DNA from: a virus | Strand: one strand, 5' to 3' | IMG/VR virus record: IMGVR_UViG_3300045988_183667 | Length of the DNA: 64,000 bases | Part shown: one piece after another, positions 21,599-47,907 of the stretch | How the letters are laid out: the number at the start of each line of letters is the position of its first letter | Numbering within the stretch: the stretch's first letter is position 1 | Notes under the pieces: generated by a model | Seen by the model: only the letters and a program-made list of their open reading frames with translations | Databases searched by the model: none | Told to the model about the DNA's origin: nothing | Position numbers and translations under genes: made by a program

Positions 21599-21637
21599 AA
21601 AATATGCAGAGCCAAATGCCGGTTCTGCATATTTTTT
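21599..21637. terminator. bidirectional rho-independent terminator between convergent genes
   Basis: Perfect 12-bp stem AAAATATGCAGA/TCTGCATATTTT with a 13-nt loop, A-run before it and T-run after. Confidence 0.7.
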
Positions 21638-22661
21638 ACGGATTATAGTCATCACTGATTTCTTCAGTGTCATCTTCCGGCATCTGTATTCCGGACAGCA
21701 GTTCGTTAATCGCATCAGACCGGATTGTCTTGTTTGTTTCCGTAGGTTCCGGCTGAGTTTGTCCGGTTTCTATCAGGTATGGTTTTGTGATGCATGTTTC
21801 ATAGGACAGGTCAGTATCCTGTAAGCCGGGATAGTTCTTTTCTATTACCGGGTACAGTTTCATGCAGACAGAAGCAATACACCTGTCCTGTTTCAGGCCA
21901 CGTGGAATATCATCGTCAGAAAGACAGTTTAAGTAAGCGGCTCTCGTGTCTGTGTGGGATATTATATAACGTCTGACAGGATCTTCTGTATTTTCCAGTG
22001 GTATGTTTACGGGATAGAAACGGGTTTCCATGAACGACTTGTCATAAGCATCGTCGAAAGCAGACAGGATCTCATCAACAGAAGCATACTGTTTATCTTT
22101 GATGAAATATGATGTCATGTGGGCTTTCTCGTTTACAATGTCAACAATGATGCTTTCCAGCTGGTCAGTTGGGATGTCAGGGAATTCATCGCAGAGATAT
22201 TCATAAGCACTTTCAATTCCGTACTGTTCGGCCTGGATTTCGTTCGCATTAAAACGGTAGTTACTGTCGCTTAAATAATAGTCATTGCTATACATACAGG
22301 CAATTTCCTGTATCATCTGATTCATGGAATTTTCGTCCGGATGTTCCTGTTTGAAAAGATTGTTTTTCTGGATGCAATGCATATGCTCATGATACATATT
22401 GATAACAACTTTGGCAAAATCAGTATCAGATACAGTAGGGTTTATCAGTTGTATTATGGATTTTCTAACAGGCATTGTGTTTGAAGTACTGATAGATACA
22501 TGTGAAACCATACCTGTTTCATTTGTATGTGTGCTGCCATTACCGTATGCAAGTTTGTTTGTCAGTGTGCATGGTATATTATATTGAGTAAACAGATTAT
22601 TGCTGAGAGTTTTTAATCTTGTTGCTGTTTTACGTTTGTCCAGTTTCAGTATGTTATCCAT
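21636..22661 (-). CDS. putative zinc metallopeptidase (HExxH: HEHMH), ImmA/IrrE-like?
   Basis: HEHMH motif; co-transcribed downstream of an XRE HTH regulator, as in ImmR/ImmA modules. Confidence 0.45.
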   Translation of the reverse strand: MDNILKLDKRKTATRLKTLSNNLFTQYNIPCTLTNKLAYGNGSTHTNETGMVSHVSISTSNTMPVRKSIIQLINPTVSDTDFAKVVINMYHEHMHCIQKNNLFKQEHPDENSMNQMIQEIACMYSNDYYLSDSNYRFNANEIQAEQYGIESAYEYLCDEFPDIPTDQLESIIVDIVNEKAHMTSYFIKDKQYASVDEILSAFDDAYDKSFMETRFYPVNIPLENTEDPVRRYIISHTDTRAAYLNCLSDDDIPRGLKQDRCIASVCMKLYPVIEKNYPGLQDTDLSYETCITKPYLIETGQTQPEPTETNKTIRSDAINELLSGIQMPEDDTEEISDDYNP

Positions 22662-22972
22662 AAACGACCTTCCTTTACGGCTTTTTCCAGTTCAGCTTCT
22701 TTTTCTTTTGTTATCATCATGTCTTCTAAAGTTGCCATTTCGAATTCTCTGTCATTTTTATGCTTTTTGAATTCTTCAAAAGAGCCGTATGGATAATCTG
22801 ATGACGATATATTTAATTCTTTTGCTTCAATAATATCTATTATATCCTGAACATTACGAATGTCGTATCCCATATCAAACAGCATATCTGTGAGTTTATG
22901 AAATTTTCTTTCATTCTCGGATGGTTTGTATTTTGGCAAATTAAATCTAGGTACCGGCATTATTTCCTGCAC
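22646..22972 (-). CDS. hypothetical protein (108 aa)
   Basis: ORF between the HTH and HExxH genes, with overlapping stops. Confidence 0.45.
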   Translation of the reverse strand: MQEIMPVPRFNLPKYKPSENERKFHKLTDMLFDMGYDIRNVQDIIDIIEAKELNISSSDYPYGSFEEFKKHKNDREFEMATLEDMMITKEKEAELEKAVKEGRLWITY

Positions 22973-23211
22973 TCCTTTCTGTTCTTATGGCAGTCATCGG
23001 TTTTGGGATCCGGATTTTCTTTTTCTATCCTTTCTTCCAGATCAAGAATTCTCTCGACCATATAAAGAATATGGCCGGGAGTCCGTTTGATGCCGCCTTC
23101 CCATCCCTGCAGGGTTTTTATGCTGAGATGGAATCTCTTTGCGAACTGGCTCTGGCTTAAGCCTGTCCGCGCCCTTAAGTCTTTCATTTTCTTGGTAGCA
23201 ATATTTTCCAT
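22960..23211 (-). CDS. XRE-family helix-turn-helix transcriptional regulator
   Basis: LRARTGLSQSQFAKRFHLSIKTLQGWEGG is a typical Cro/CI HTH; the start is placed at MENIATKK. Confidence 0.7.
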   Translation of the reverse strand: MENIATKKMKDLRARTGLSQSQFAKRFHLSIKTLQGWEGGIKRTPGHILYMVERILDLEERIEKENPDPKTDDCHKNRKECRK

Positions 23212-23267
23212 AATTATATTATACTCGAAAGGAGAATACATTGCAAGCAGATTTTATAGGAACAATC

Positions 23268-23316
23268 AACTGATATATCAGTTGTTCTTGACAAAATACG
23301 CTGACCAGCGTATAAT
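23268..23316 (+). promoter_or_regulatory. TTGACA-17-TATAAT promoter with two palindromic operators
   Basis: AACTGATATATCAGTT 23268..23283; -35 at 23288..23293; ACGCTGACCAGCGT 23298..23311 inside the spacer; -10 at 23311..23316. Confidence 0.7.
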
Positions 23317-23345
23317 AAAGATATGAGATAGAAGGAGATTATATT

Positions 23346-25220
23346 ATGTCAAATGATATTGTGCTGACAGATGAGCAACAGTTTTTTATAGATAGTGCAT
23401 TAGCCGGCAAGAACATCCTCGTGGATGCCTGCATCGGTTCTGGCAAGACAACGACAATACAGAGAGCCTGTTCAGCATTAAGTCCGAAGCGGGTTTTGTA
23501 CCTTACTTATAACAGGCGTCTTTATGACGATGCTTGCAAGAAGATCCACGAGACGAATACAACGATTGCAACATTCCACAGGTTTGCAGCACAGTGCTGT
23601 TTCGGTAACGAAATTCCACAGACGTCCATGAACACGGTGTGCAGACAGTTTGCGAACAGTGTGACACATATCCCGAAATATGATGTGGTCATTGTGGATG
23701 AATATCAGGATCTCAGGGAAGACACGGCCGCAGTTTTAAATGCCATCTGCCGGCTTTCTTATCTGGAATACGACGGATTTGTGCCGCAGTTTCTGATCGT
23801 TGGTGACATGCAGCAGAAGATTTATGACACATCGAATTTCAAGGCAGATGATTTCATCCGGTATCTGTTCGGTATCATTAAGAATGACGAGTATATGCGG
23901 TTTACAAAGTGTTTCCGTCTGGCTCCCGGTTATGCCGCAGAGATTGGTCAGGCTTGGAACAAAAGCATTGTGGGTTGCAACCCGAACAGCCGTGTCGAGG
24001 ACGTGGATTCTCTGTGTCATCTGGTGAATATCCTGAAAAATTACGAACCAAAGGACATTCTGGTTCTCGGCGGAAAGATGCCATGGGGTGCAAGGACACA
24101 GCTTCAGAACATGCTGGAAGAGCAGTATCCGTATAAGTTCAATAAGAGTACGGTGTACGCTTCCATGGATGAGCAGGATGAAATGCAGAGTTTTGATACG
24201 TCAGAAGCCGCAATCTTTACGACTTATGATTCGGCAAAGGGACTGGAACGAAAGGTCTGCGTGGTCTGCGATTTCACAGAGAAATACTTGGAAGCAAGAC
24301 AGAAACATTCGGTATCCAGACAGATCCTTAAGAATATTTTTCTGGTCGCGGCATCCCGTGGGAAAGAACGTATTATTTTCTATACGGACAGACGGGATGA
24401 TAAGCTCCAGATCAGTGTTGTGGGGCTTATTACAGGTGATATGCCGATAGATATGAAGCCCGTGACCATGAGCCATGCGTTTGAGCACAAATACGAAGAG
24501 GACATCCGTGACTGCATGGATTTCCTTACGATAGAAAAGATCCAGGATGCCGGGAAAGTCATAAAGGCTACGAAGTCCGACGGTTTTATTGACCTGTCGG
24601 CATGTATCGGCATCCATGCACAGGCAACGTATTTTGACAATTTTGATATTGATGCCATGATCTTACGTGACTACGTGGATGCACAGAATAAGGGAATCCA
24701 CCTGCCGGAGTTTAAGCCGGATTGGTCATTGCAGAAAAAGATTTTATATTACGTGGCAATGGAGTCCGGACAGCTGCGTTACCTGCGTGACATCAAGAAA
24801 AAGTTTGTCAGCAAAGCATCAGACAAAGAACTGCATGAGAGACTTGCCACGGTATTTGACGGCAGCGAAGCAGTGGAACTGCCGTGCAATATCACGTTCC
24901 AGTATGCTAAGAATGCCGTGAACGGTGTCCGTGTCGGAGACAAGACAATGCTTGGACGGTGCGATGCATTCACACATGTCGGGGAACTGTATGAATTAAA
25001 GTTTGTGGATACCATATCTCCGGACCATGAACTGCAGGCTGCATTGTATGCGATCGCGTTTGGTATGAAATACGCAATCATCTGGAACTTGCAGGATGAT
25101 ACGAAGCTGCGTGTTTCTGTGGATCCAAACCGTATCAGTGAGTTCTTGCAGTGTGTCTGCAAGTGCATTTCCAAAGATATGTTAACAGTAGACGCTGGAA
25201 GCATCCATATTTCAGGCTGA
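23346..25220 (+). CDS. SF1 UvrD-like helicase fused to a C-terminal RecB/Cas4-like PD-(D/E)xK nuclease
   Basis: Helicase motifs: GSGKTTT (I), VVIVDEYQD (II), IVGDMQQKIY (III), TTYDSAKGLE (V), VAASRGKERI (VI). C-terminal D-x6-ELYELK followed by QAALYA (QxxxY). Confidence 0.8.
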   Translation: MSNDIVLTDEQQFFIDSALAGKNILVDACIGSGKTTTIQRACSALSPKRVLYLTYNRRLYDDACKKIHETNTTIATFHRFAAQCCFGNEIPQTSMNTVCRQFANSVTHIPKYDVVIVDEYQDLREDTAAVLNAICRLSYLEYDGFVPQFLIVGDMQQKIYDTSNFKADDFIRYLFGIIKNDEYMRFTKCFRLAPGYAAEIGQAWNKSIVGCNPNSRVEDVDSLCHLVNILKNYEPKDILVLGGKMPWGARTQLQNMLEEQYPYKFNKSTVYASMDEQDEMQSFDTSEAAIFTTYDSAKGLERKVCVVCDFTEKYLEARQKHSVSRQILKNIFLVAASRGKERIIFYTDRRDDKLQISVVGLITGDMPIDMKPVTMSHAFEHKYEEDIRDCMDFLTIEKIQDAGKVIKATKSDGFIDLSACIGIHAQATYFDNFDIDAMILRDYVDAQNKGIHLPEFKPDWSLQKKILYYVAMESGQLRYLRDIKKKFVSKASDKELHERLATVFDGSEAVELPCNITFQYAKNAVNGVRVGDKTMLGRCDAFTHVGELYELKFVDTISPDHELQAALYAIAFGMKYAIIWNLQDDTKLRVSVDPNRISEFLQCVCKCISKDMLTVDAGSIHISG

Positions 25221-25236: not shown

Positions 25237-25737
25237 ATGAACTGGAATGAGTTATTTGTAAAATTTACACAGAACCGGGAGGTGACAGACCTCGTGGATC
25301 ATAAGTATGTATATCTTGCCATTATGATGTGTATTGCAGGATTTGTGATGCTGTTTGCTTATCTGGGCCGCAATATTAAAAAGTACCGGTGTGACGCAAA
25401 GGTCACCGGCAAATGCGTGGATGTCAAGTGCAGCATAAAGCATAATGATGTCTATTACACCTGTGATTATCTGATCGGTTATGATGGTGCAAGGTATCTG
25501 CTCCACGATGTGCCGTATTCCGGTGGGGCGGGGTTTGCTAGTCCGGCAAAGGCAAAGGTTCCCGAAAAGGGACATTCCGTGAAGTTGCGGATCCGTATCA
25601 AAGGCGACCAGATTACGGAATGCTGGACGAAAAAGGACAGTGTACAGCAGTATGTGATGCTGTTCTGCTGTCTGATGTTTGTCGGCGTGGCACTGTATCT
25701 TACGGTACATTATGGTTTACTGGGAGCATTATTATGA
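25237..25737 (+). CDS. membrane protein (2 TM)
   Basis: Hydrophobic helices at the N-terminus and C-terminus. Confidence 0.5.
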   Translation: MNWNELFVKFTQNREVTDLVDHKYVYLAIMMCIAGFVMLFAYLGRNIKKYRCDAKVTGKCVDVKCSIKHNDVYYTCDYLIGYDGARYLLHDVPYSGGAGFASPAKAKVPEKGHSVKLRIRIKGDQITECWTKKDSVQQYVMLFCCLMFVGVALYLTVHYGLLGALL

Positions 25738-25928
25738 GCAGACTGAAAGATTTGATGAATGAGAGAGGTTACACAAAGGCATCCCTGTCAGAGTTATCCG
25801 GTATCAGCGTGCGGACACTGGAGCCGTACATTGCCGGTTCAAGGAAATTTGCGAACACGCCGTTATGGCTCGCCGTAAAAATTGCAGATACGCTGGGTGT
25901 GGATGTTCATGATTTGATGGAGGAATAA
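25734..25928 (+). CDS. XRE-family HTH regulator (65 aa)
   Basis: KASLSELSGISVRTLEPYIAG HTH; ATGA overlap with the upstream gene. Confidence 0.6.
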   Translation: MSRLKDLMNERGYTKASLSELSGISVRTLEPYIAGSRKFANTPLWLAVKIADTLGVDVHDLMEE

Positions 25929-25929
25929 T

Positions 25930-26550
25930 ATGAAAAAGACATTACAGGAAGAATTTCTGGAAGCATTTAAGAATTTTGAGGACGTGCTTGCATCCGAAGG
26001 TTTTACAAGGATGTCATCCGGAAGAGGGCTGGTAGCACAGTATGAGGATAAACTGGAACCGGAATCGGATGTAAGAAAGGGATTGCAGCAGTGCCGTATT
26101 ATCCGCAATGCCTATCAGCACGAGAACAGAGTGCTGTTCCTGCCGACACCGGATGCCGTGAAGCTGTTGCAGGATGAAGCGGCAAAACTTGACAGGCGTG
26201 TTGCTGCAAAAGATATTATGAAAAAGCCAAAGAAGCTCGCACCGACAGACAGGACATATATGCTTTCTGCAAAAGATATTGATTTCATCCTTGCCGGCGG
26301 GGTTCTTCCGATCGTGGATGAGAACGGCGGATATATCGGTGGTGTGGACAAAAACGTGCTGATCCGCATGCTGACGTTTTCTGCCAGAAAAGTACAGATC
26401 CGTTCGATGCTTGCCGATGACGTGATAAAAAATGCTATATCCGCGGCAGCAGGTATCACAACACCGGAAACACTGGTCGCAGACTTAAAAGACGGTGTGT
26501 ATGCTGTGATCGACAGTAAGGATAAATACAGGGGTATGATTGTAAAATAG
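25930..26550 (+). CDS. CBS-pair (Bateman) domain protein with N-terminal HEPN-like domain (RNxxxH)
   Basis: The C-terminal half has two CBS-like units (DIMKKP...ILAGGVLPIVDENGGYIGGVDKNVLIRML; SMLADD...VYAVIDSKDKYRGMIV). The N-terminal ~95-aa helical region carries RIIRNAYQHE, which fits Rx4-6H. Confidence 0.5.
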   Translation: MKKTLQEEFLEAFKNFEDVLASEGFTRMSSGRGLVAQYEDKLEPESDVRKGLQQCRIIRNAYQHENRVLFLPTPDAVKLLQDEAAKLDRRVAAKDIMKKPKKLAPTDRTYMLSAKDIDFILAGGVLPIVDENGGYIGGVDKNVLIRMLTFSARKVQIRSMLADDVIKNAISAAAGITTPETLVADLKDGVYAVIDSKDKYRGMIVK

Positions 26551-26563: not shown

Positions 26564-27694
26564 ATGCAGATCAGATGTCCGGAATGCGGAAAGGTGTTTG
26601 ATTTGTCCGGCAGTGATGCCGACGAGATCAGACAGCAGATCCGTAACCATGAATTAGAGAAAGAAGTGAAGCGCCGTGTGGATCAGTTTAAAGAAACACA
26701 GGACGCAAAGCAGGAACTTGCCGTAAAAGAGGCAGTTTCCAAGGAACGTGAAAAGTACATGACAGAGCTGGAGTCTGCAAGGCGTAAGCAGCATGATGCA
26801 GAAATGCAGGCAAAGACAGAGAAGGAGTCATCACAGATCCGTCTGGACAAGGCTGTTCTTGAGACAGAGAAGAAATTCACGGAGCAGCTTTCCGAAAAAG
26901 ATGCCGAGATTAAGGCAAAGACCGTGGAGGCAGAGTATTACAGGGATTTAAAAGCCCGTATGTCCACAAAGATGGTTGGAGAGTCCTTGGAGCAGCACTG
27001 CCATGATGAGTTTGAAAAGCTCCGTGCGACGGCTTTCCGGTTCGATTATTTTGAAAAGGACAACGAGGTTTCTTCTTCCGGTTCCAAGGGAGACTTTGTC
27101 TACCGTGCATATACACCTGATAAAATGGAACTGGTGTCTATCATGTTTGAGATGAAGAACGAAATGGAAACGACGGAGAAGAAGCACAAGAACGAAGATT
27201 TCTTCAAGGAACTGGACAAAGACCGTAGGGAGAAGGGCTGTGAGTACGCTGTCCTTGTGACGATGCTGGAAGCAGATTCTGAGCTGTACAATCAGGGTAT
27301 CGTGGATGTATCCCACAGATATGAGAAGATGTATGTGATTCGTCCGCAGTTCTTCATTCCGTTTATCACGATGATCCGTAATGAGGCCGCAAGACGTGAG
27401 GACATGACAAGACAGCTTGCAACCATGGCGGAGCAGAATGTCGATGTGCTGAATCTCCGCAATGCGATCGAAGCTTTCAAATCAGACGTGGGAACATCGT
27501 TTGGCCACTTTTCTACAAAGTATCAGGAAGCCATGGATGACATTGACAAGGCGATCGTTGCTTTGCAGAAAACAAAAGAAGCCATGCGTCTTGCATTAAA
27601 GCATCTTGATACGACACAGCGTAAGGTTGATCGGATCGAGGTAAAGAAACTGGTAAAAGACGCACCGGGGCTTGCCGCTCAGCTGGAGGAATAG
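26564..27694 (+). CDS. DUF2130-like protein (N-terminal zinc ribbon + coiled-coil + C-terminal globular domain)
   Basis: MQIRCPECGKVFDL...IRNHELEKE at the N-terminus is characteristic of the DUF2130 family as I recall it; no alignment was run. Confidence 0.6.
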   Translation: MQIRCPECGKVFDLSGSDADEIRQQIRNHELEKEVKRRVDQFKETQDAKQELAVKEAVSKEREKYMTELESARRKQHDAEMQAKTEKESSQIRLDKAVLETEKKFTEQLSEKDAEIKAKTVEAEYYRDLKARMSTKMVGESLEQHCHDEFEKLRATAFRFDYFEKDNEVSSSGSKGDFVYRAYTPDKMELVSIMFEMKNEMETTEKKHKNEDFFKELDKDRREKGCEYAVLVTMLEADSELYNQGIVDVSHRYEKMYVIRPQFFIPFITMIRNEAARREDMTRQLATMAEQNVDVLNLRNAIEAFKSDVGTSFGHFSTKYQEAMDDIDKAIVALQKTKEAMRLALKHLDTTQRKVDRIEVKKLVKDAPGLAAQLEE

Positions 27695-27698: not shown

Positions 27699-27917
27699 AT
27701 GTTTTTCGTGAATGGACAGGATTTTAATACCGTTCTTGTACTGCCGGATGGCAAGTATCTGATACAGGCATTTTTACGGGCAGTTCCGAATGCAGGTAAT
27801 TATTTTGTTTACCGTGGACAGAGGTATTGTATCAAAAGGGTGACACATTTTTATTCAAACAGGCCATGCCGGGGCAAGAAACTTACACTGTATCTTGACT
27901 GCAACGTATGTCCTTGA
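27699..27917 (+). CDS. small Cys-rich hypothetical protein (72 aa)
   Basis: A GGAGGAA RBS lies 8 nt upstream of the ATG at 27699; it overlaps the 3' end of the upstream gene. Confidence 0.35.
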   Translation: MFFVNGQDFNTVLVLPDGKYLIQAFLRAVPNAGNYFVYRGQRYCIKRVTHFYSNRPCRGKKLTLYLDCNVCP

Positions 27918-27943
27918 CAGTGTTATGCTGTATATTATATAAT
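27914..27943 (+). promoter_or_regulatory. promoter TTGACA-18-TATAAT
   Basis: 27914..27919 and 27938..27943. Confidence 0.5.
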
Positions 27944-28816: not shown

Positions 28817-28978
28817 CAGAATAATCTGGCAAATTTTATGGAAATCTATTGCAAACAGCAGACATTTATGGTATCCTCAGATACGAATGTGAAACATTTC
28901 TTTCTGTGATTGATGCCGTATGGGGATGCACCGGGTAAAAAATATCTGGTGCATTCTCATTTTTTTTTCGATATTATA

Positions 28979-29260: not shown

Positions 29261-32200
29261 ATGAAGACATTAAGCAACGCAGGTAAGAAAGTAGCCCGTA
29301 GAAGTTTTGCCGGTTTTATGGCAATGCTGATGTGTGCTACAACCCTCGGAACAAATTTCTGGGGACTGGGTTCCAAGGATTCTGAGTCTATTGTCGGCGG
29401 ATTTGAAGCATTCGCAGCAGACAGTGTGACATATGGTCCTTCACAGACCTATTATGATGCCGGTACGCTCGTAATGAACGCTTATTACGACAGTTCCACT
29501 GGAACAAAACTGGCAGAGACATCTGCTAATTATCATGCAACAGACTGGGATGTAACGTATGCATCGTCTTATGTTGCATCAGCGTCACAAAACGGAAACA
29601 AGGGTGTTACTGTGATCAGTACGACTGATATTGCAGATTCTAATAAATACGGTTCCGCTTCCAACGTCGTTGACGGTGGTGATGGAAAGAGAGGTATCAT
29701 GTGCTTCTCTGAGTATCTGGACGCCTTGAACGGCAATTTTAATCCTGGTGATGCAGATTACAAGGCATATGAGAAATCGGTGCCGGATTATGAAGCTCCT
29801 GCCGGAAATGATACGGTTACATATCAATACATGGCAGAAGGTAAGACATATTCCACAGATGACGGTCAGGTAGAGATTAAGTGGACTCTGTTTGCATGGC
29901 CGGATGATCAGAATCTGGATGGTCTTTCTACAGCCGCAATGAAAGCAAAACTGGATACACCGGAAGAGATTAAGACAGAATGGGAAAAAGTAAAACCCAC
30001 AGAGATTACAGGCAACAATAACTCTGTGAAACTGGATGTTCCAGGTGAACTGGTAAGCGATGCCGGTACATGGCAGGATGCTGGAAATACCGGTGCGAAG
30101 GACAATGCTTCTCTATTCTATAAAGGACAGCCTGAGTGGTTTTCCGGAAACCAGGGTTCTTTCGATTCATGGTTTACAGATCATCATGAAAATTATCTGA
30201 TGAATTTAGGACTGTGGACTCGTCTGGAAACTTCTCCTGTAAAGATTACAAAAACAGCCGGAACCGGTGGTTATGTGACTTACGAGGGTAAGCCTGCGGT
30301 AAGTATTGCAATGTTTAAGCCATCCAATACTTCAAGCGTGTATCAGGGTGCTGACGTAAAGACGACTCTTACAGAGGATAATGATGCAGAATTTTTACCA
30401 CTGTATGCTTATCTTGGTGATACTTATGCATCCGCTGATAAACTGTCTGCCATGAAGCTGACTGACATTTTAAGAGGACAGGCGTCTGCTGAAAGAGCAA
30501 CTATTCCTACTTACAATATCAGAAAGCAGCTGTACGCAATGTGGGAGACAACACAGGCTTTTTATCTGAAGAATGCGACTTCTTTGACATGCCGACAGAT
30601 CAGCGATGGTGCGACCGGAGTTTCAAAGACATGGACAAATATCAATGTTACCGGTACAAGACTATATGCAATCGCATCTTATCCTCGAATTGATACTACA
30701 TATGCAGCAGGTAACCAGACCTATGTAAATGCAAGTGCAGAAGGTGCTAAGATCACAGTAATCAATGCATCCGAACAGTGGAACAGCGCGGCTCAAGGTG
30801 GCGAAGCATATGGTTCTTCCGATGGCAAGAATCCTGTATTATTTGTATTCAATGAGAATGATATTTGCGAAGCAAATGGCATCATCCATGCAAATAATAT
30901 TCCGGGACAGGTATTTAACCTGAGTGATATTTATGATGCTTACGGCACAGATCTTAAGCCCACGGGAACAGGAAAAGTAGTTGCTGAAGATATCGCAAAC
31001 ACCATTGTTCCATTTGTGATTCGATCCGATGCTTATTATGATGTAACCGAAGATTATCAGCGAGCAGCAGGCGTTCTTTATGGACGAGTTGATGCATCTA
31101 CGCTTGATACTTCTGCTATTAACAGCAGATTTGCAGGTAAGGTCGCAATCCCTTCCGCAAATGATGAGATCGTAGATACCGTAACTTACAGTGGATTAAA
31201 CGGCGGTGACAGCTATACTCTGGAAGGTGCTGTTTATAAGTCAAATGATAAGACTTTTGCAAGTCCTATTGTACAGACAACTGTGAGCTTTACTGCTCAG
31301 GCAACTACTGGTACGCAGGATGTAGTATTCACAGCATTTAATTCTACTTCCGTTGCTTCTGGTGAGAAGCTGGTTGTAACTGAGGTATTGAAGTCTGCTG
31401 ACGGCACTGTTATCGCAGAACATAAGGATCTGGCAGATGCTGACCAGACGATCGCTTACACAAAGAAGCCTGTTCTTGTGACAAAGGCATCTTTGTCTGA
31501 CGAAGACAAGAAGATCACTGATACGGTAACTTATTTCGGACTGGATGCTTCTGCTGAGTACATCATGACTACGACGGCTTATGATGCTACTACAGGCAGT
31601 ATGTTACCTGACTCCGTAGCAACAGAGTTTACAGCTTCTGATACCGGTAACGGTAAAGTAGATGTTGTTTACGATAAGTTCGATGCCGTTGATCTGGCAG
31701 GCCATAAGCTGGTTATGTATGAATCCGTAGCATTAAAGTCTGCCCCGAACCCAGAAGTTGCTTCTCATAAGGACAAGAATGATGCAGATCAGACTGTAGT
31801 TCTTGGTTCCAACATGGAAATTTCCACAGTCGCAAAGGCCGGTACAGGTTCTAAGTATCTGGATGCTATCGACAGCGAGACAATCGTGGATACCGTAACG
31901 GTAACAGGTCTTAAGGCTTCTGAAAAGTACACAGCGAGAGCAACTCTCTTTGATGTAACCACAGGTGAGCTTGTTACTGACACTTCAAGTAATACGCTTA
32001 CATGGTCTGAGGAGTTTACGACAGACGCTTCCGGTAATGGATCTACAACTGTAACTCTTGCAAATTTTGCTGCAAGCAACAAGGCAGGACATACACTGGT
32101 TGTTTATGAAGAGATTCTGAACGCAAACGGTGTTTCTGTTGCGACACACGCAGACAGTGCAGATGAGCAGCAGACAGTTTCTGTTAAGAAAGCCGGTATC

Positions 32201-33940
32201 ACAACGGTACTTGGCGACGCTGACGGAAAGAAAGACATGGAGTCTTCTGCATCCATGGTATTTAAGGATGCCATCACTTATTCCGGACTGGTTCCCGGCA
32301 ATGAGTATTACATGGTTTCCACTCTGGTAGACAAGGCTAACGGTCAGGTTCTTACAGATACTGCCGGTAATAAGGCAATCGTAACATCTACCGTGTTTAC
32401 AGCCAACAGTACAGGTTCCAACAAGGGTTCCTCATCCTTCACGTTTACCAATATGGCATCTACGATGTCTGGAAAGACCGTTGTTGCATTTAATGACCTG
32501 TACAGAGTGACAGATGGTACTGCATCCGGCACTACGGTTACGGATAACGTAAAGGCTGAACTCGTTGCATCTGAACATGATCTTGCGAATGTAAGCCAGA
32601 CGGTTTCCATTGATGCAACAATTGATGTAACAGACGCTACGATCGATACTGTTGCAAAGGGTGTTGATGGAAGCAAGACTATTCCTCTTGCAACAAACTC
32701 CACAATTAAGGACACCGTAACTTATACAGGTCTGACAGCCGGAAAGACTTATACCTTGTCTGCTGAAGTCTATGACACCAACACAGGTAAGAGAGCTGCC
32801 GGTTATACAAAGGCGCAGTCCATGGACTTCACTGCTGGTGATAATGGCAAGGGTGAGATTGTCATGACGATTGACCTTAATACCATGGAACTTTCCGGTC
32901 ACAAGCTGGTCGTTTATGAGACACTGTCCTTGGGCGACAAGACGGTTGCATCCCACAGGGATTTGACAGATGCTGACCAGACTGTAACGGTAAACGATAC
33001 CTTCCAGGCATCCATTGATACCGTGGCTACAGATAAGGCTACCGGTGGAAAGACACTGATGGCAAGTTCTGATGCAGTGATCCTTGATAAGGTTTCTTAC
33101 GATGGTCTGGATACGAATATGTCTTATAAGCTGACAACGACAGTTTATGACAAGGCTACCGGAGCAAAGTGCGACGGTATTGCAGCTGTTACCACAGAGT
33201 TCAAGCCTTCTGATTCCAAGGGAACTGTTGAGGTAAGCATTCCTGTCGACGGTACGAAGTTCACGGCTGGACAGTCACTCGTTGTATACGAAGAGTTGAC
33301 AGCTACAAGCAAGACTACTGGTACAGACGGTAAGAGTGCTACAAAGACTGTGACTGTGGCAACACATAAGGATATTTCTGATGCAGATCAGACAGTAACA
33401 TTTGTGAAGATGACCACTTACCTTACTGGTGACGGTACATCTGCAAAGACTGTCCATGTTGGATCAGACGCTTATGCGATTGATACAGCATCCTTTACAG
33501 GACTGACACCGAACAGAACCTATGTGATTACCACACAGCTTCTGGATGTGGCTGCAAATTCAGGTGCAGTGACGCTTGATACAAACACATCTGCGAACAA
33601 CACGGCTTCCGGCAATGCCGTTGCAACAAGAACCATGGAGTTTACTCCTACTACAGCAAATGGTTCCATTGCAACACAGATCAATGTCAATACGACAGGT
33701 CTGTCAGGTCATTCCCTTGTTGCCGTAGCAACCGTTACAGATAAGACAACAGGTCAGACTGTTGCGACACACACTGATAAGGCTAATGTCGACCAGACAA
33801 TCACTGTGCAGACCCGTGTGGAAGCACAGACAGGTGTCGGCACGTATGCTTGGATCTTCGGAATTATGGCACTGATCATGCTGGCCGGAGTATCCTCTTA
33901 CGGAATCGGCTTTTACAGTGACAAAAAGAACGGCAGATAA
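29261..33940 (+). CDS. giant sortase-anchored surface adhesin with ≥7 tandem Thr-Gln ester-type repeats
   Basis: Signal peptide. ~95-aa repeats begin with DTVTY(S/T)GL and end with H-x-D-x-x-D-x-(D/E)-Q-T-V (Cpe0147 / VaFE-like signature). The C-terminus carries EAQTG, a hydrophobic segment, and a DKKNGR tail. Confidence 0.85.
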   Translation: MKTLSNAGKKVARRSFAGFMAMLMCATTLGTNFWGLGSKDSESIVGGFEAFAADSVTYGPSQTYYDAGTLVMNAYYDSSTGTKLAETSANYHATDWDVTYASSYVASASQNGNKGVTVISTTDIADSNKYGSASNVVDGGDGKRGIMCFSEYLDALNGNFNPGDADYKAYEKSVPDYEAPAGNDTVTYQYMAEGKTYSTDDGQVEIKWTLFAWPDDQNLDGLSTAAMKAKLDTPEEIKTEWEKVKPTEITGNNNSVKLDVPGELVSDAGTWQDAGNTGAKDNASLFYKGQPEWFSGNQGSFDSWFTDHHENYLMNLGLWTRLETSPVKITKTAGTGGYVTYEGKPAVSIAMFKPSNTSSVYQGADVKTTLTEDNDAEFLPLYAYLGDTYASADKLSAMKLTDILRGQASAERATIPTYNIRKQLYAMWETTQAFYLKNATSLTCRQISDGATGVSKTWTNINVTGTRLYAIASYPRIDTTYAAGNQTYVNASAEGAKITVINASEQWNSAAQGGEAYGSSDGKNPVLFVFNENDICEANGIIHANNIPGQVFNLSDIYDAYGTDLKPTGTGKVVAEDIANTIVPFVIRSDAYYDVTEDYQRAAGVLYGRVDASTLDTSAINSRFAGKVAIPSANDEIVDTVTYSGLNGGDSYTLEGAVYKSNDKTFASPIVQTTVSFTAQATTGTQDVVFTAFNSTSVASGEKLVVTEVLKSADGTVIAEHKDLADADQTIAYTKKPVLVTKASLSDEDKKITDTVTYFGLDASAEYIMTTTAYDATTGSMLPDSVATEFTASDTGNGKVDVVYDKFDAVDLAGHKLVMYESVALKSAPNPEVASHKDKNDADQTVVLGSNMEISTVAKAGTGSKYLDAIDSETIVDTVTVTGLKASEKYTARATLFDVTTGELVTDTSSNTLTWSEEFTTDASGNGSTTVTLANFAASNKAGHTLVVYEEILNANGVSVATHADSADEQQTVSVKKAGITTVLGDADGKKDMESSASMVFKDAITYSGLVPGNEYYMVSTLVDKANGQVLTDTAGNKAIVTSTVFTANSTGSNKGSSSFTFTNMASTMSGKTVVAFNDLYRVTDGTASGTTVTDNVKAELVASEHDLANVSQTVSIDATIDVTDATIDTVAKGVDGSKTIPLATNSTIKDTVTYTGLTAGKTYTLSAEVYDTNTGKRAAGYTKAQSMDFTAGDNGKGEIVMTIDLNTMELSGHKLVVYETLSLGDKTVASHRDLTDADQTVTVNDTFQASIDTVATDKATGGKTLMASSDAVILDKVSYDGLDTNMSYKLTTTVYDKATGAKCDGIAAVTTEFKPSDSKGTVEVSIPVDGTKFTAGQSLVVYEELTATSKTTGTDGKSATKTVTVATHKDISDADQTVTFVKMTTYLTGDGTSAKTVHVGSDAYAIDTASFTGLTPNRTYVITTQLLDVAANSGAVTLDTNTSANNTASGNAVATRTMEFTPTTANGSIATQINVNTTGLSGHSLVAVATVTDKTTGQTVATHTDKANVDQTITVQTRVEAQTGVGTYAWIFGIMALIMLAGVSSYGIGFYSDKKNGR

Positions 33941-33989
33941 GCTGTTCTGATGGAAAAGAGTCTTCCCATTGGCTTTGTTTCTTCTTTGG

Positions 33990-34026
33990 ACACCCGTGCA
34001 GGTAACTGCATGGGTGTTCTTGTGTT
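33990..34026 (+). terminator. rho-independent terminator
   Basis: 12-bp stem ACACCCGUGCAG/CUGCAUGGGUGU (one G-U pair), GTAA loop, then a T-rich tail. Confidence 0.55.
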
Positions 34027-34058
34027 ATGAGTCGCACACTCTTTTTTCAGAAAATATG

Positions 34059-34087
34059 TTGATAAATGAAAAGTTTTAGTGTATAAT
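34059..34087 (+). promoter_or_regulatory. promoter TTGATAAATGAA-17-TGTATAAT (family motif)
   Basis: -35 at 34059..34064, extended -10 at 34080..34087. Confidence 0.6.
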
Positions 34088-34164
34088 CATGTTTGAAATG
34101 TGATTGGCTCTTATATGAGAAAATCTGTATGTTTCAAATTATCAGTAAAGGAAGATGCAAATTT

Positions 34165-35136
34165 ATGGCAAGAACATATAATATCAATCCGCAGCCGGAA
34201 TCACCCGTTGCAGAAGTTTCTGAAAGTGAAAAGAAGAAATTCCCATGGCAGGCAGTCCCTGTCGTGCTCGTGATCGGAGCCGTGGTTGCCGGTACGGCTT
34301 TTGGGGTGGCAAAGCTCCAGGAACATAACGAGGACGTGAAGATCACAAAGACATGGGAAGAGTTTAAAAATGTCGCAGACAGCGCGGAAGGAGAATCCGT
34401 GTCAGAAGTGTCCACAGAAGAGTCAGGTGCAGTGGAACACGGACAGATGTACTCTTCGGATCCGATGAAGCGAGTGATCAACTGGGACGCTGTACATAAT
34501 GTGAACGAAGAGGTTAAATGCTGGATCTATATTCCGCAGACAGAGATTGATTATCCGGTGTTACAGTCAGCGAAGTGGGAAGATAATGAGTATTATTTAA
34601 AGCATGATGTGTATGGTAACAGTTCTGCTGCCGGATCTATCTATATGCCGGCTGAGGTGGAGGGATTTGAAGAGAAAGACATTCATCAGATCATCATCGG
34701 TCATCACATGCGTAACGGAAGCATGTTTTCAGATCTGGTCAAGTATAAAGACAAAAGTTTCTGGGAAGCAACACCGTATATTTATCTTTACTATCCTGAC
34801 AGGACGGAAAAGTGGTTGATTTATTCTCCTTATCATACAACACAGGCAGATGAGATTTATAATATGCCATATGAAGCAGGAACAGTATTATATAAAAATC
34901 TGCTCGATAAGATCGAGGCAAACAAGCCGTATGACACGGCGACGAATGGTCCGACCGTAAGTGCTCCTCTTCTTACACTGACGACATGTGACCGTACTAG
35001 CACGGATAATTCTGCTGGACGTTTTGTCGTAAATGCAAAGCTCGTGGATACTGCTGCATTACAGGCCGGAACAGAGAATTCAATCACAGACAGTTCTTCT
35101 GTTGTATCTGAGAATAGTCAGGAAGGGGTGGAATAA
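34165..35136 (+). CDS. srtB: sortase (class B-like)
   Basis: N-terminal TM anchor, His motif IIIGHH, catalytic TLTTCD, and a conserved Arg in GRFVVNAKL. Confidence 0.85.
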   Translation: MARTYNINPQPESPVAEVSESEKKKFPWQAVPVVLVIGAVVAGTAFGVAKLQEHNEDVKITKTWEEFKNVADSAEGESVSEVSTEESGAVEHGQMYSSDPMKRVINWDAVHNVNEEVKCWIYIPQTEIDYPVLQSAKWEDNEYYLKHDVYGNSSAAGSIYMPAEVEGFEEKDIHQIIIGHHMRNGSMFSDLVKYKDKSFWEATPYIYLYYPDRTEKWLIYSPYHTTQADEIYNMPYEAGTVLYKNLLDKIEANKPYDTATNGPTVSAPLLTLTTCDRTSTDNSAGRFVVNAKLVDTAALQAGTENSITDSSSVVSENSQEGVE

Positions 35137-38291: not shown

Positions 38292-38307
38292 AAAAATAGA
38301 AAACATG

Positions 38308-38352
38308 ATTTATGGTGTGATAAGGCTCAGTGTCACACCATAAATTTTTTTG
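38308..38352. terminator. bidirectional rho-independent terminator
   Basis: Perfect 13-bp stem ATTTATGGTGTGA/TCACACCATAAAT with a 12-nt loop, flanked by A6 and T7. Confidence 0.7.
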
Positions 38353-40922: not shown

Positions 40923-40949
40923 ATTATCAGGTCTGGCATCACAAACATA

Positions 40950-40978
40950 TTGATTTATCAGTGATATACATATATAAT
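40950..40978 (+). promoter_or_regulatory. promoter TTGATT-17-TATAAT flanked by inverted repeat TCTGGCATCAC / GTGGTGCCAGA
   Basis: 40950..40955 and 40973..40978; inverted-repeat arms at 40932..40942 and 40984..40994. Confidence 0.5.
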
Positions 40979-41038
40979 ATAGAGTGGTGCCAGATTATGG
41001 CAGAATATCGAAAAGATTATATAAGGAGCACATGAATT

Positions 41039-41926
41039 ATGGCAAAGAAATCGTATAAGATTCCTGCTTCTTTGAGCGATAATTATCTGAACATGGAAAT
41101 CGCGCTCCAGACGAAAGACGGTGTAGGTTTAAAACCGTTGCCGGTAAGGGTTATCCTTGCATGGCTGTTTGGATTGCTCGCAGGATTTTACTGTGTTGTG
41201 AATTCCGGCAGTGTTATTGCTCAGGCAAGTATTTTTACAAGGGTGCTGTTCGCCGTTGTGTGGATTGCTTTCCTGTGGGTTATGACGAAAGTTGACCGTT
41301 CCCATAAGATGCAGCTGGAATTGATTCCTGCACTGTTAAGCTATCTGCAGAAGTCAAACAAGTATGTTATCACACGTAGGACAGCGAATGCCGGTCCGTT
41401 CTATTCCATTGTTGGTATCCGGTCAATTGATCCAAAGACAGGACTTGTGGAATACGTGGATGGAACCAGTGCATACTGGTACAGCGTGGTCGGAACGGCT
41501 TCCGTACTTCTGTTCCCGGAAGATCGGGATGCAATCCTTGACAGGGTAAAGGACTTTTATGACAAGATCGGTTCTGATTGTGAGATTATTTTCATGACCA
41601 CAAAGGAATCACAGAAAGTACAACAGCAGACGGCGCATTTGATGGCTCAATACAAAGCACTGACGCCGGAAGTAAGAGAGGACGAGGACGTGAAGGCTCT
41701 TGTCCGTGAACAGTATAAAATCATGACTGAGTTCGTGGGAAAGCGTTTTAAATCCCTGCATCAGTACATGATCATTAAGGGTGACAATGAAGAAGCCTTA
41801 TCAGCAATCAACAACATCGTTATGTCGGAAGTCCGCGGATCTTCTCTGATGCTCAAGCAGTGTACGGCATTATATGAAAAGGACATCGAGAATGTATTGA
41901 AGCTGATTTACGCATCAAATCATTAA
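41039..41926 (+). CDS. T4SS-associated membrane protein (2 TM near N-terminus)
   Basis: Hydrophobic helices RVILAWLFGLLAGFYCVV and VLFAVVWIAFLWVM; it sits between topB and the VirB4-like gene. Confidence 0.5.
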   Translation: MAKKSYKIPASLSDNYLNMEIALQTKDGVGLKPLPVRVILAWLFGLLAGFYCVVNSGSVIAQASIFTRVLFAVVWIAFLWVMTKVDRSHKMQLELIPALLSYLQKSNKYVITRRTANAGPFYSIVGIRSIDPKTGLVEYVDGTSAYWYSVVGTASVLLFPEDRDAILDRVKDFYDKIGSDCEIIFMTTKESQKVQQQTAHLMAQYKALTPEVREDEDVKALVREQYKIMTEFVGKRFKSLHQYMIIKGDNEEALSAINNIVMSEVRGSSLMLKQCTALYEKDIENVLKLIYASNH

Positions 41927-41952
41927 AAGAAATCACAGAAAGGAATGGACAT

Positions 41953-47735: not shown

Positions 47736-47907
47736 GATAATTCCGGCGGGAGTAACATCCTGCCGGATGTCTTAAAAATAAAATCTGGAAAATTTTAGTT
47801 TGTCCTATTGACAATGGTTTTCGGATTTTATATAATATACGAAGGTAGGTTGGCAAGTACATATTTATGTAGTAAAAATCTTTTTATCACAGAAAGGAGA
47901 AACAATT

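What the first reader, a model, noticed from the sequence alone, without database searches (positions are those of the whole stretch)
22960..25220. Compact SF1 helicase–PD-(D/E)xK nuclease fusion under a palindromic-operator promoter, divergent from an XRE/HExxH (ImmR/ImmA-like) module
A 624-aa single protein combines all UvrD-like helicase motifs with a RecB/Cas4-type nuclease (D...ELYELK...QAALY).

Its perfect TTGACA-17-TATAAT promoter carries two palindromes, AACTGATATATCAGTT and ACGCTGACCAGCGT, the second inside the spacer. Divergently transcribed are an XRE repressor, a small ORF and an HExxH metallopeptidase. This is the same layout as the ImmR/ImmA switches that de-repress ICEs and prophages after DNA damage.

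The helicase-nuclease could be a recombination or DNA-processing function of the element, or a single-protein anti-phage or anti-plasmid nuclease-helicase. The domain order is reversed relative to Nhi.
Basis: partly seen in the sequence, partly recalled or inferred. Interest (0 to 1): 0.55.

Follow-up and report, generated by a model that had tools for sequence, protein, structure and literature searches.

The report
Compact RecB-like helicase–nuclease on a megaplasmid
A 624-residue protein on a gut-bacterial conjugative megaplasmid joins a stripped-down UvrD-type DNA motor to a RecB/Cas4-type DNA-cutting domain; it is real and belongs to an unstudied family, but the neighbouring "ImmR/ImmA-like switch" is an unrelated cargo insertion.

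Summary
ORF 23346..25220 encodes a 624-aa protein with every SF1/UvrD helicase motif. Its C-terminal domain has a RecB/Cas4-type PD-(D/E)xK fold with invariant D540, E550-x-K552 and Q564xxxY568. The 12/12 TTGACA-17-TATAAT promoter and both palindromes are present.

In eight related elements the helicase–nuclease (HEL) sits at the same backbone position and diverges in step with the backbone. The XRE/104-aa/341-aa module is one of several alternative cassettes in an insertion hotspot upstream. The HExxH protein matches no peptidase family, M78/ImmA included.

The spacer palindrome is kept in five lineages that lack the XRE. It co-occurs perfectly with a small HTH gene inside the HEL operon, so it is probably that protein's operator. 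The upstream palindrome corresponds to a terminator hairpin in relatives.

In the wider family, a DEDDh exonuclease is fused or adjacent in 50 of 86 loci, and some members follow pPIWI-RE/DinG or lie in defence islands.

Best reading: a self-regulated, degradative mini-RecB carried as a core plasmid gene. Its biological target is unresolved. It is a new member of a known kind, of moderate interest.

The parts
23346..25220 (+). HEL: 624-aa helicase–nuclease. A UvrD-type SF1 motor core (aa 1 to about 350) without sizeable 1B/2B accessory domains, a linker, and a RecB/Cas4-fold PD-(D/E)xK nuclease (aa about 385-624).
23288..23316 (+). Promoter of the HEL operon: TTGACA, 17 nt, TATAAT (12/12).
   Evidence: The same block is conserved in L101, L102, L103, L106 and L107.
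23296..23313 (.). Spacer palindrome ATACGCTG-AC-CAGCGTAT, overlapping the -10. It is the probable operator of the operon-encoded small HTH protein.
   Evidence: It is conserved in five lineages that lack the XRE, with a symmetric compensatory change in L107 (ATACGCTA-CA-TAGCGTAT). It co-occurs with the HTH gene in 5 of 5 lineages, and both are absent in 3 of 3.
23267..23284 (.). Palindrome CAACTGATATATCAGTTG, 3 nt upstream of the -35. It is a shortened counterpart of the terminator hairpin that precedes the HEL promoter in relatives, and possibly serves as the XRE operator here.
23332..23338 (+). Shine-Dalgarno AAGGAGA for HEL.
25237..25737 (+). 166-aa predicted membrane protein, second gene of the operon. 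It is a variable slot in relatives.
25734..25928 (+). 64-aa HTH_26 protein, the probable autorepressor that binds the spacer palindrome.
25930..26550 (+). 206-aa conserved operon partner of unknown function.
26564..27694 (+). 376-aa DUF2130 protein, a second PD-(D/E)xK-superfamily nuclease and a conserved operon partner.
   Evidence: Pfam 1.1e-72. It is 69-99% identical in relatives. The family is listed in the PD-(D/E)XK superfamily.
22960..23241 (-). XRE-type HTH gene (93 aa, or 83 aa from the ATG at 23211), part of an inserted cargo cassette. The likely promoter is TTGCAA 23246-23241, 17 nt, TATAAT 23223-23218, which would give a leaderless mRNA.
   Evidence: Among the loci fetched it is found only with this element (L011, L017, L105).
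22646..22960 (-). 104-aa ORF. Its ATG overlaps the XRE stop codon (TAATG). It is the first gene of the mobile 104+341 cassette.
21636..22661 (-). 341-aa protein with an HExxH...E motif and no known family. It is the second gene of the mobile cassette.

Best explanation
HEL is an autonomous, ATP-driven helicase–nuclease, a single-chain 'mini-RecB'.

Mechanism. A minimal UvrD/Rep-type SF1 motor lacks the large 1B/2B accessory domains. It is inferred to translocate 3'->5' on one DNA strand and to feed that strand into a C-terminal RecB/Cas4-fold nuclease, whose catalytic residues are D540, E550 and K552, with the QxxxY motif at 564-568. The product would be resected or degraded DNA, starting from an end or a nick.

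Genomic status. HEL is a vertically inherited core gene of a lineage of MobL-type conjugative (mega)plasmids of gut Clostridia. It is the first gene of a short operon: HEL, a variable slot, a small HTH, a 206-aa protein and a DUF2130 nuclease.

Regulation. The operon is driven by its own consensus promoter. The operon's 64-aa HTH probably shuts that promoter off by binding the palindrome in the spacer. This would give a burst of expression in a repressor-free cell, followed by self-repression.

The XRE/104/341 genes are a separate cargo cassette that landed in the hotspot just upstream.

Role. I think the enzyme is degradative. It would act on DNA with free ends or nicks, most likely foreign or competing DNA such as a rival plasmid or a phage, or on unprotected ends. 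I do not think it unwinds the plasmid for transfer.

Shown: domain identities, conserved catalytic residues, synteny, and the promoter/HTH co-variation. Inferred: polarity, coupling of motor to nuclease, repression, and the biological target.
For: Biochemistry.
- All SF1 motifs and the nuclease triad plus QxxxY are invariant in 36 sequences.
- PDDEXK_3 is reached by homologues.
- The nuclease domain exists almost only behind this helicase. There are 211 cluster representatives among 1.84 billion proteins, mostly at about aa 360-600 of 590-1300-aa proteins.

Core-gene status.
- HEL has the same position in L001, L003, L101-L104, L106 and L107.
- Its identity tracks the backbone. Against L101, ParM is 78%, flotillin 90%, HEL 84% and DUF2130 81% identical. 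Against L001 the figures are 58, -, 67 and 76.
- The upstream cassette is swapped (75% and 51% identity) between elements whose HEL is 99% identical.

Regulation.
- The TTGACA-17-TATAAT block with the ACGC-N6-GCGT palindrome is conserved without an XRE, and L107 carries a symmetric compensatory change.
- The palindrome and the HTH gene co-occur in 5 independent lineages and are both absent in 3. My Fisher estimate is p about 0.02.

Degradative or conflict role.
- Every nuclease residue is conserved.
- A second PD-(D/E)xK nuclease (DUF2130) sits in the operon.
- In the wider family a DEDDh 3'-5' exonuclease is fused (34 loci) or adjacent (16 loci), 50 of 86 in all.
- HEL directly follows PprDinG and pPIWI-RE in two loci. 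It follows HEC-01 and HsdR in three loci, and precedes PDC-M10B in two.
- The variable slots flanking HEL hold HNH and Mrr nucleases.
- DdmD offers a working precedent: a helicase followed by a PD-(D/E)xK nuclease that degrades plasmids.
Against: - There is no experimental datum for any family member.
- No defence-system model matches HEL specifically.
- Steady vertical retention in a plasmid backbone is unusual for defence genes. It fits a plasmid housekeeping function at least as well.
- The window lineage lacks the DEDDh partner, so inference from the 39%-identity class may not transfer.
- In two actinobacterial plasmids HEL lies inside the transfer-gene cluster.
- Polarity and motor-nuclease coupling are inferred from fold similarity only. 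Model coordinates could not be inspected.
- HTH-operator binding rests on co-occurrence in only 8 lineages.
Confidence: 0.5

Rival explanations
1. HEL is the element's own transfer or rolling-circle helicase. It would unwind the plasmid from the nick made by the MobL relaxase, which has no helicase domain. It would play the part that host PcrA plays for ICEBs1 and rolling-circle plasmids, and that a 2026 preprint assigns to a separate 'helicase' gene in gut 'Hodor' megaplasmids.
For: - The MobL relaxase at 58564..60702 lacks a helicase domain.
- HEL is UvrD/PcrA-like.
- It is a core gene of the plasmid lineage.
- In Rhodococcus pGS01 and Gordonia pGKT2 it lies between transfer genes that are adjacent in the window, and these plasmids share the topoisomerase, the 295-aa, 630-aa and 1297-aa proteins, and MobL.
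- The Hodor preprint describes a relaxase-helicase module next to the partition and T4SS genes. The window's source scaffold (351 kb, GC 44%) resembles a Hodor.
Against: - A fully conserved, presumably active nuclease fed by the motor would cut the very strand the helicase tracks. No known transfer or rolling-circle helicase carries one.
- The Streptomyces plasmid with the closest 630-aa and MobL homologues has no HEL. Nor do more than 190 more distant plasmids of this T4SS type.
- Most family members lie outside conjugation clusters.
- The identity of the Hodor 'helicase' could not be checked, because no supplements are held.
Confidence: 0.2
2. HEL is a plasmid-encoded end-resection enzyme for recombinational repair or maintenance of the 351-kb replicon. 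It would be a one-chain functional analogue of AddAB, RecBCD or AdnAB, possibly working with the DUF2130 (RmuC-like) nuclease.
For: - The domain order and folds are those of RecB, AddA and AdnB.
- Core-gene behaviour.
- A DUF2130 partner recurs in distant loci as well (L033, L091).
- The DEDDh partner in the wider family would supply the second strand polarity, as the two nucleases of AddAB do.
Against: - There is no partner subunit and no Chi-scanning domain.
- Hosts normally encode AddAB (general knowledge, not tested here).
- The family's association with pPIWI-RE, HEC-01, HsdR and Mrr/HNH slots points to conflict rather than repair.
- Tight autorepression from a consensus promoter is not typical of repair enzymes.
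Confidence: 0.15
3. The divergent XRE / small ORF / HExxH module is an ImmR/ImmA-type damage-responsive switch. On induction the metallopeptidase cleaves the XRE repressor, which then releases the two palindromic operators and de-represses HEL.
For: - The layout is divergent, with an XRE next to a protein that carries a conserved HExxH.
- A palindrome lies between the two divergent promoters.
- The three genes overlap, as an operon would.
Against: - The HExxH family hits no peptidase model, M78 included, in 15 of 15 members at E<=1, and no PDB sequence.
- The 104+341 pair travels without the XRE (L014), or co-directionally with HEL and without any XRE (L101).
- HEL has the same promoter and spacer palindrome in five lineages with no XRE.
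- The upstream palindrome matches a terminator stem in relatives.
Confidence: 0.05
4. HEL is an establishment or anti-defence function. It would be expressed in a burst when the plasmid enters a repressor-free recipient, and it would destroy host defence intermediates or resident competitor DNA before the HTH shuts the operon off.
For: - The consensus promoter plus a co-transcribed autorepressor has the logic of zygotic induction.
- A homologue (P0094) lies among ParA/ParB, DUF4942, DUF932 and other genes typical of plasmid leading regions.
- The neighbouring hotspot cassette family sits next to an AcrVA2-like gene elsewhere.
Against: - The position of oriT, and hence of the leading region, is unknown here.
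- No known anti-defence protein has this architecture.
- This rival overlaps with the best explanation. It shares the enzyme and the regulation and differs only in the target.
Confidence: 0.1

Closest known systems
RecB / AddA / AdnB (motor-nuclease subunits of RecBCD, AddAB and AdnAB)
   Different: HEL is about half the size, at 624 aa against about 1100-1230. It has no sizeable 1B/2B domains, no partner subunit gene and no Chi-recognition module. Sequence similarity in the nuclease domain is undetectable: phmmer finds only this family. HEL is plasmid-borne, not chromosomal housekeeping.
UvrD–Cas4-like (PF12705) fusion proteins described by Hudaiberdiev et al. 2017 (PMC5704561)
   Same: These are single-chain proteins with an SF1 3'-5' helicase and a Cas4/RecB-like nuclease. 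They are stand-alone or in variable, often defence-type, contexts.
   Different: Neither the window protein nor its homologues hit PF12705. The helicase here is a minimal core. The contexts differ: conjugative plasmids, DEDDh and pPIWI-RE here, against type III R-M and Dcm/Vsr there.
DdmD of the Vibrio cholerae DdmDE anti-plasmid system (PMC11795196)
   Same: An N-terminal helicase is followed by a C-terminal PD-(D/E)xK nuclease, and the protein degrades DNA while translocating on ssDNA. It works with an Argonaute-type partner. Two HEL relatives directly follow a pPIWI-RE gene.
   Different: DdmD has an SF2 motor, not SF1. No Argonaute-like gene lies near HEL in the window.
Nhi (nuclease-helicase immunity) and Gabija GajB
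   Same: Both are SF1 or UvrD-type helicases used in defence. GajB models give partial matches over motifs II-III.
   Different: GajB has no nuclease domain and needs the GajA OLD nuclease, which is absent here.
Dna2
   Different: Its domain order is reversed (nuclease first), its motor is SF1B, and it has an Fe-S cluster (general knowledge). No Cas4/Dna2-type four-cysteine pattern is evident here.
ImmR/ImmA (ICEBs1) repressor / anti-repressor protease pair
   Same: An XRE-type HTH gene lies next to an HExxH protein, divergent from the genes to its right.
   Different: The HExxH protein is not M78 or ImmA-like by any model. A 104-aa gene intervenes. The pairing with the XRE and with HEL is not conserved.

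Membership tests
SF1 UvrD/Rep-type helicase | Walker A and B (motifs I and II) and motifs Ia and III-VI. | tested here: met
   GSGKTT, DEYQD, VGDxxQxIY, FR, FTTxDxxKGxE and VAASRGK are invariant. Pfam AAA_19 and UvrD-helicase score above their cut-offs.
SF1 UvrD/Rep-type helicase | Two RecA-like domains with a UvrD/Rep/PcrA-like fold. | tested here: met
SF1 UvrD/Rep-type helicase | 1B and 2B accessory domains of UvrD/Rep/PcrA. | tested here: not met
SF1 UvrD/Rep-type helicase | 3'-5' translocation and ATP-dependent unwinding. | not testable with these tools
   Inferred from the closer match to SF1A than to SF1B structures.
RecB/Cas4-type PD-(D/E)xK nuclease | Catalytic D...(D/E)xK and the QxxxY motif. 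| tested here: met
   D540, E550, K552, Q564 and Y568 are invariant in 36 sequences.
RecB/Cas4-type PD-(D/E)xK nuclease | Restriction-endonuclease-like fold closest to RecB, Cas4 and lambda exonuclease. | tested here: met
RecB/Cas4-type PD-(D/E)xK nuclease | A match to a curated family model (PDDEXK_1 PF12705, Cas4 PF01930 or PDDEXK_3 PF13366). | tested here: inconclusive
   The window protein has no hit. Eight homologues reach PF13366 at 22.5-29.3 bits (cut-off 22) over the D...ELK...QxxxY stretch. None hits PF12705.
RecB/Cas4-type PD-(D/E)xK nuclease | Four-cysteine Fe-S cluster of the Cas4/AddB/Dna2 subgroup. | tested here: inconclusive
   C390, C420 and C514 are conserved, but there is no C-terminal CxxC-type pattern.
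ImmR/ImmA switch | The anti-repressor is an M78 (ImmA/IrrE) HExxH metallopeptidase. | tested here: not met
   There is no Pfam, NCBIfam, PHROG or PADLOC hit for the 341-aa protein. None of 15 family members hits any peptidase family at E<=1. There is no PDB sequence hit.
ImmR/ImmA switch | The repressor and protease genes are a conserved pair next to the genes they control. | tested here: not met
   The 104+341 cassette occurs without the XRE (L014, L101). HEL occurs without either in L001, L003, L102-L104, L106 and L107.
AddAB / RecBCD / AdnAB complexes | A second motor, nuclease or Chi-recognition subunit is encoded alongside. | tested here: not met
   No second helicase-nuclease gene lies in the operon or its flanks.
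Gabija (GajAB) | GajB UvrD-like helicase with an adjacent GajA OLD-family nuclease. | tested here: not met
   Only partial GajB matches of 50-140 residues were found. No GajA was found among the neighbours.
DdmDE-type helicase-nuclease plus Argonaute | SF2 helicase-nuclease with a pAgo partner. | tested here: not met
   The motor is SF1. There is no Argonaute-like gene among the window genes annotated. A pPIWI-RE partner occurs only in two distant relatives.
'Hodor' gut conjugative megaplasmids (PMC12934698) | Size above 300 kb, GC about 45-47%, multiple sortases, ParM, T4SS, and Rep_3/ParA/ParB markers. | tested here: inconclusive
   The source scaffold is 351,136 bp and the GC content is about 44%. 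A sortase, a TQ adhesin, a ParM-like gene and a Phage_lysozyme2 domain are present. Rep_3, ParA and ParB lie outside the window and were not checked.

The most novel reading that the evidence does not exclude
The HEL family is a previously unrecognised class of DNA-degrading conflict effectors. It would be a minimal SF1 helicase–RecB-nuclease that works alone, or with a fused or adjacent DEDDh exonuclease, or downstream of a pPIWI-RE/DinG guide module, in the way DdmD works with DdmE. Gut conjugative megaplasmids would keep it as a self-repressed core gene, in order to eliminate rival plasmids or phages in the cells they enter.
Probability: 0.3. Interest if true: 0.6.

Novelty: new member of a known kind. 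Interest (0 to 1): 0.4.

Why it matters
If the enzyme does degrade foreign or competing DNA, it would be a compact, one-gene helicase–nuclease effector. It is widespread in gut Clostridia: hits in 190 species representatives and more than 1,700 protein clusters.

It would add a plasmid-borne case to the helicase–nuclease defence theme (RecBCD, DdmD, Nhi). It would also explain why a lineage of very large conjugative plasmids keeps it.

The DEDDh fusions and the pPIWI-RE linkage give concrete partners to test. The promoter/HTH pair is a clean, testable autoregulatory circuit.

If HEL instead proves to be the transfer helicase of MobL-type elements, it would answer how relaxases without a helicase domain are served in these plasmids.

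The negative result also matters. An XRE next to an HExxH protein is not by itself an ImmR/ImmA switch.

Tried and rejected
- Direct HMM assignment of the C-terminus failed. Pfam, NCBIfam, PHROGs and PADLOC gave nothing for aa 365-624 of the window protein. Homologues and a domain-level structure were needed.
- The whole-protein fold searches were dominated by the helicase and said nothing about the C-terminus.
- Nucleotide search of 21-28 kb against PLSDB gave no match. Protein search against the phage records gave no match. IMG/VR gave one distant hit.
- I considered that L006, which has an HD-domain gene two genes upstream of a HEL homologue, might be the 'MOBH-like HD nuclease + helicase' module of Hodor megaplasmids. 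I rejected this because L006 has 64% GC and shares no other gene with the window.
- The Hodor preprint's supplements are not held, so the identity of its 'helicase' stayed unchecked.
- I looked for further copies of either palindrome in the window, as a sign of a regulon. There are none.
- I looked for a DEDDh exonuclease in the window. There is none.
- I asked whether HEL heads one long conjugation operon, like the Pc promoter of pLS20. I rejected this because strong terminators and further consensus promoters divide 25-38 kb into short units.
- HEL as a universal core gene of this T4SS type is rejected. It is absent from the Streptomyces plasmid and from more than 190 more distant plasmids.
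- Annotation of the left-hand genes (0-15 kb) gave almost nothing.


Full report
**What is there**

ORF 23346..25220 (+) encodes 624 aa behind a strong ribosome-binding site.

The N-terminal 350 residues are an SF1 helicase.
- Pfam AAA_19 and UvrD-helicase score above their cut-offs.
- An alignment with 35 homologues of 38-85% identity shows invariant Walker A (GSGKTT), DEYQD, VGDxxQxIY, FR, FTTxDxxKGxE and VAASRGK motifs.
- An AlphaFold model built on that alignment is confident (pLDDT 91.6).
- The motor is minimal. There is no room for the 1B and 2B accessory domains of UvrD, Rep or PcrA.

No library hits the C-terminal 260 residues of the window protein directly. Three independent lines place them in the RecB/Cas4 branch of PD-(D/E)xK nucleases.
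- D540, E550-L-K552, H561, Q564 and Y568 are invariant.
- Homologues at about 39% identity reach Pfam PDDEXK_3 at or above its cut-off on exactly that stretch.

A search of the domain alone against 1.84 billion representatives finds only 211 proteins. In most of them the domain lies at about residues 360-600 of 590-1300-aa proteins. The domain therefore exists essentially only fused behind this helicase.

**The promoter and palindromes**

TTGACA (23288-23293), a 17-nt spacer and TATAAT (23311-23316) form the only 12/12 promoter match in the region. I estimate about 0.06 such matches per 64 kb from base composition. A second one lies at 27914, so consensus promoters are a trait of this element.

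Both palindromes exist and are unique in the window. By length alone they are not improbable. Their meaning comes from comparison with relatives.

**The element**

The window carries a MobL relaxase, a topoisomerase, a 1559-aa TQ-ester adhesin, a sortase, a Phage_lysozyme2-containing 1182-aa protein, a ParM/Alp-like actin and a flotillin.

An identical copy of the region lies on a 351,136-bp metagenomic scaffold. A 99%-identical HEL lies in an uncultured Lachnospiraceae MAG. GC content is about 44%.

These properties resemble the 'Hodor' gut conjugative megaplasmids of a 2026 preprint (mean size 351 kb, GC 44.6-47.1%, many sortases, ParM). Membership was not tested with their marker genes.

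The transfer backbone is shared across phyla with Rhodococcus pGS01 and Gordonia pGKT2. Identities are 47% for the topoisomerase, 35% for the 295-aa protein, 47% for the 630-aa protein, 24% for the 1297-aa protein, 36-37% for MobL and 31% for HEL.

**HEL is a backbone gene and the XRE module is cargo**

Eight related elements have HEL at 49-85% identity: L001, L003, L101, L102, L103, L104, L106 and L107. Most keep the following order.
- ParM-like gene, flotillin, a 68-aa gene, a 427-aa gene and a gene of about 280 aa.
- A first variable slot.
- HEL.
- A second variable slot.
- A gene of about 210 aa, DUF2130, and genes of about 70 and 230 aa.
- The TQ adhesin and the sortase.

L003, the most distant relative, shares only the genes immediately around HEL.

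The first slot is empty in some elements. In others it holds a Metallophos gene, or 107+323 and 107+187 gene pairs co-directional with HEL. Only in this element does it hold the reversed XRE + 104 + 341 trio. The second slot holds nothing, a small HTH, a membrane protein plus the HTH, an HNH protein, or an Mrr protein.

HEL identity follows the backbone. Against L101, ParM is 78%, flotillin 90%, HEL 84% and DUF2130 81% identical. In contrast, the 341-aa and 104-aa proteins are only 75% and 51% identical between two elements whose HEL and XRE are 98-99% identical. The cassette has been exchanged.

The 104+341 pair also occurs with neither an XRE nor HEL, next to AcrVA2-like and SIR2 genes.

The 341-aa family keeps HExxH and two glutamates. 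Yet none of 15 members hits Peptidase_M78 or any other peptidase family at E<=1, and none hits a PDB sequence. The ImmR/ImmA reading therefore fails both on family membership and on conserved linkage.

**Reassigning the palindromes**

The block TTGACA-AAATACGCTGAnnnGCG-TATAAT is nearly identical in L101, L102 and L103, and is recognisable in L106 and L107. None of these has the XRE.

L107 carries ATACGCTA-CA-TAGCGTAT where the window has ATACGCTG-AC-CAGCGTAT. This change preserves the symmetry, as expected for a dimer-binding site.

The palindrome is present in every lineage that has the small HTH_26 gene downstream of HEL: the window, L101, L103, L106 and L107, with HTH proteins 48-80% identical to one another. 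It is absent in the three lineages that lack that gene: L104, L001 and L003. I therefore assign it to the operon's own 64-aa HTH as an autorepressor site that overlaps the -10. This is an inference from co-occurrence in 8 lineages.

The upstream palindrome aligns with the stem of a hairpin that is followed by a T-run in L101-L104. Those stems differ by paired changes, and the hairpin ends the upstream operon there. In the window it is a shortened remnant that now lies between two divergent promoters. It may have been taken over by the XRE, but nothing shows that.

The XRE's own likely promoter (TTGCAA, 17 nt, TATAAT at 23246..23218) would start transcription at the ATG at 23211. That predicts a leaderless 83-aa product. 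The XRE stop codon overlaps the next start codon (TAATG).

**The wider family**

More than 1,700 protein clusters match. Relatives were confirmed in 190 stretches of the one-genome-per-species collection, mostly Lachnospiraceae, Oscillospiraceae and other Clostridia. Their neighbourhoods are highly variable.
- In 50 of 86 loci a DEDDh 3'-5' exonuclease is either fused to the C-terminus of HEL (34 loci) or encoded by the adjacent gene (16 loci), and never both. That pattern argues for a functional partnership.
- In two loci HEL follows PprDinG and pPIWI-RE, with gaps of 2 and 15 nt. This is a fourth gene added to the module described by Burroughs et al..
- In three loci HEL follows HEC-01A/B and HsdR, and in two it precedes PDC-M10B.
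- No PADLOC model matches HEL itself beyond generic UvrD motifs.
- The window lineage lacks DEDDh. Its operon does contain DUF2130, a member of the PD-(D/E)XK superfamily.

**How it most likely works**

The enzyme is best described as a one-chain mini-RecB. An SF1A-type motor would pull one strand 3'->5' and hand it to a RecB-fold nuclease. Because every catalytic residue of both domains is invariant, both activities are presumably used.

A nuclease coupled to the tracking strand is hard to reconcile with a helicase that merely unwinds the plasmid for transfer or rolling-circle synthesis. It is the normal design of degradative or resecting machines such as RecBCD, AddAB, AdnAB and DdmD.

The consensus promoter with a co-transcribed autorepressor predicts a pulse of expression in a repressor-free cell, followed by shut-off.

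I therefore favour a degradative role against DNA with ends or nicks, most likely foreign or competing DNA, at about 0.5 confidence for the whole statement. Broken down, that is roughly 0.8 for the biochemistry, 0.6 for the HTH-operator circuit and 0.4 for the target. The rivals are a transfer or replication helicase (0.2), plasmid recombinational repair (0.15), an establishment or anti-defence function (0.1) and the ImmR/ImmA model (0.05).

The main argument against my choice is that HEL behaves as a stable core gene of the plasmid lineage, and that it lies inside the transfer cluster in two actinobacterial plasmids.

**Novelty**

The architecture is known. It occurs in RecB, AddA and AdnB, and in the UvrD–Cas4-like fusions of Hudaiberdiev et al.. 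DdmD provides a functional precedent.

This family has no curated model, no name beyond 'AAA family ATPase' and no experiment. It differs by its minimal motor and by a nuclease domain found nowhere else. I rate it a new member of a known kind, with moderate interest (0.4).

Noticed in passing
window 21636..22960 (-); also L014 7708..9098, L101 7668..9886, L017: The 104-aa + 341-aa (HExxH...E) pair is a mobile two-gene cassette of unknown function. It is found without the XRE or HEL next to AcrVA2-like and SIR2 genes. It is duplicated and in the opposite orientation in L101. It has been exchanged for a 75%/51%-identical allele between elements whose HEL is 99% identical. The family has only 54 members and no Pfam or PDB match.
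   Followed up: partly
window 58564..60702 (+): A clear MobL relaxase (Pfam PF18555, E=1e-51) lies on what looks like a 'Hodor'-type gut megaplasmid (351-kb scaffold, GC about 44%). The 2026 preprint that describes Hodors reports no canonical relaxase in most of them and proposes a MOBH-like HD nuclease plus a separate helicase instead.
   Followed up: partly
window 38430..49864 (+); L009, L010; NZ_CP109461.1: The transfer-gene backbone is shared across phyla with Rhodococcus, Gordonia and Streptomyces plasmids. It comprises the topoisomerase, the 295-aa, 630-aa, 1297-aa and 498-aa proteins, and MobL, at 24-52% protein identity. The 630-aa and 1297-aa proteins have no Pfam match.
   Followed up: partly
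L025-L096 (HEL homologues at 38-41% identity): A DEDDh 3'-5' exonuclease is fused to the C-terminus of the helicase–nuclease in 34 loci and encoded by the adjacent gene in 16 loci, never both. This makes a three-activity machine in 50 of 86 loci. The window lineage lacks it.
   Followed up: yes
L087 80..6997; L093 4441..11812: HEL homologues directly follow a PprDinG helicase and a pPIWI-RE Argonaute-like gene (gaps of 2 and 15 nt), as a fourth gene of the pPIWI-RE module. The arrangement is reminiscent of DdmD/DdmE.
   Followed up: partly
window 23211..23246 (-): The XRE gene's likely promoter (TTGCAA, 17 nt, TATAAT) places the transcription start at the ATG at 23211. The XRE is therefore probably an 83-aa protein made from a leaderless mRNA. 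The public gene calls for the identical scaffold do not list this gene at all.
   Followed up: no
window 27914..27943 (+); terminators at 28920..28960, 33988..34019 and 38307..38346: A second perfect 12/12 consensus promoter (TTGACA-18-TATAAT) and several long-stem terminators divide the rightward genes into short transcription units rather than one long conjugation operon.
   Followed up: no
window 26564..27694 (+) and 25930..26550 (+): The DUF2130 protein has an N-terminal zinc ribbon, a middle part that looks coiled-coil by eye (untested), and a C-terminal GDF...FEMK motif. It is a conserved operon partner of HEL and also lies near HEL in the distant loci L033 and L091. The conserved 206-aa protein between them carries an RNAYQH (Rx4H, HEPN-like?) motif and matches no family.
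   Followed up: no
window 29261..35136 (+): A 1559-aa surface protein with seven T-Q ester-bond domains is followed by a sortase. The pair is conserved in relatives (56-70% identity) and matches the 'surface-associated module' described for Hodor megaplasmids.
   Followed up: no
window 23346..25220, protein residues C390, C420 and C514: Three cysteines in the nuclease domain are invariant or nearly so, without the C-terminal CxxC-type pattern of Cas4/AddB/Dna2 Fe-S clusters. Whether they cluster in space could not be checked.
   Followed up: no
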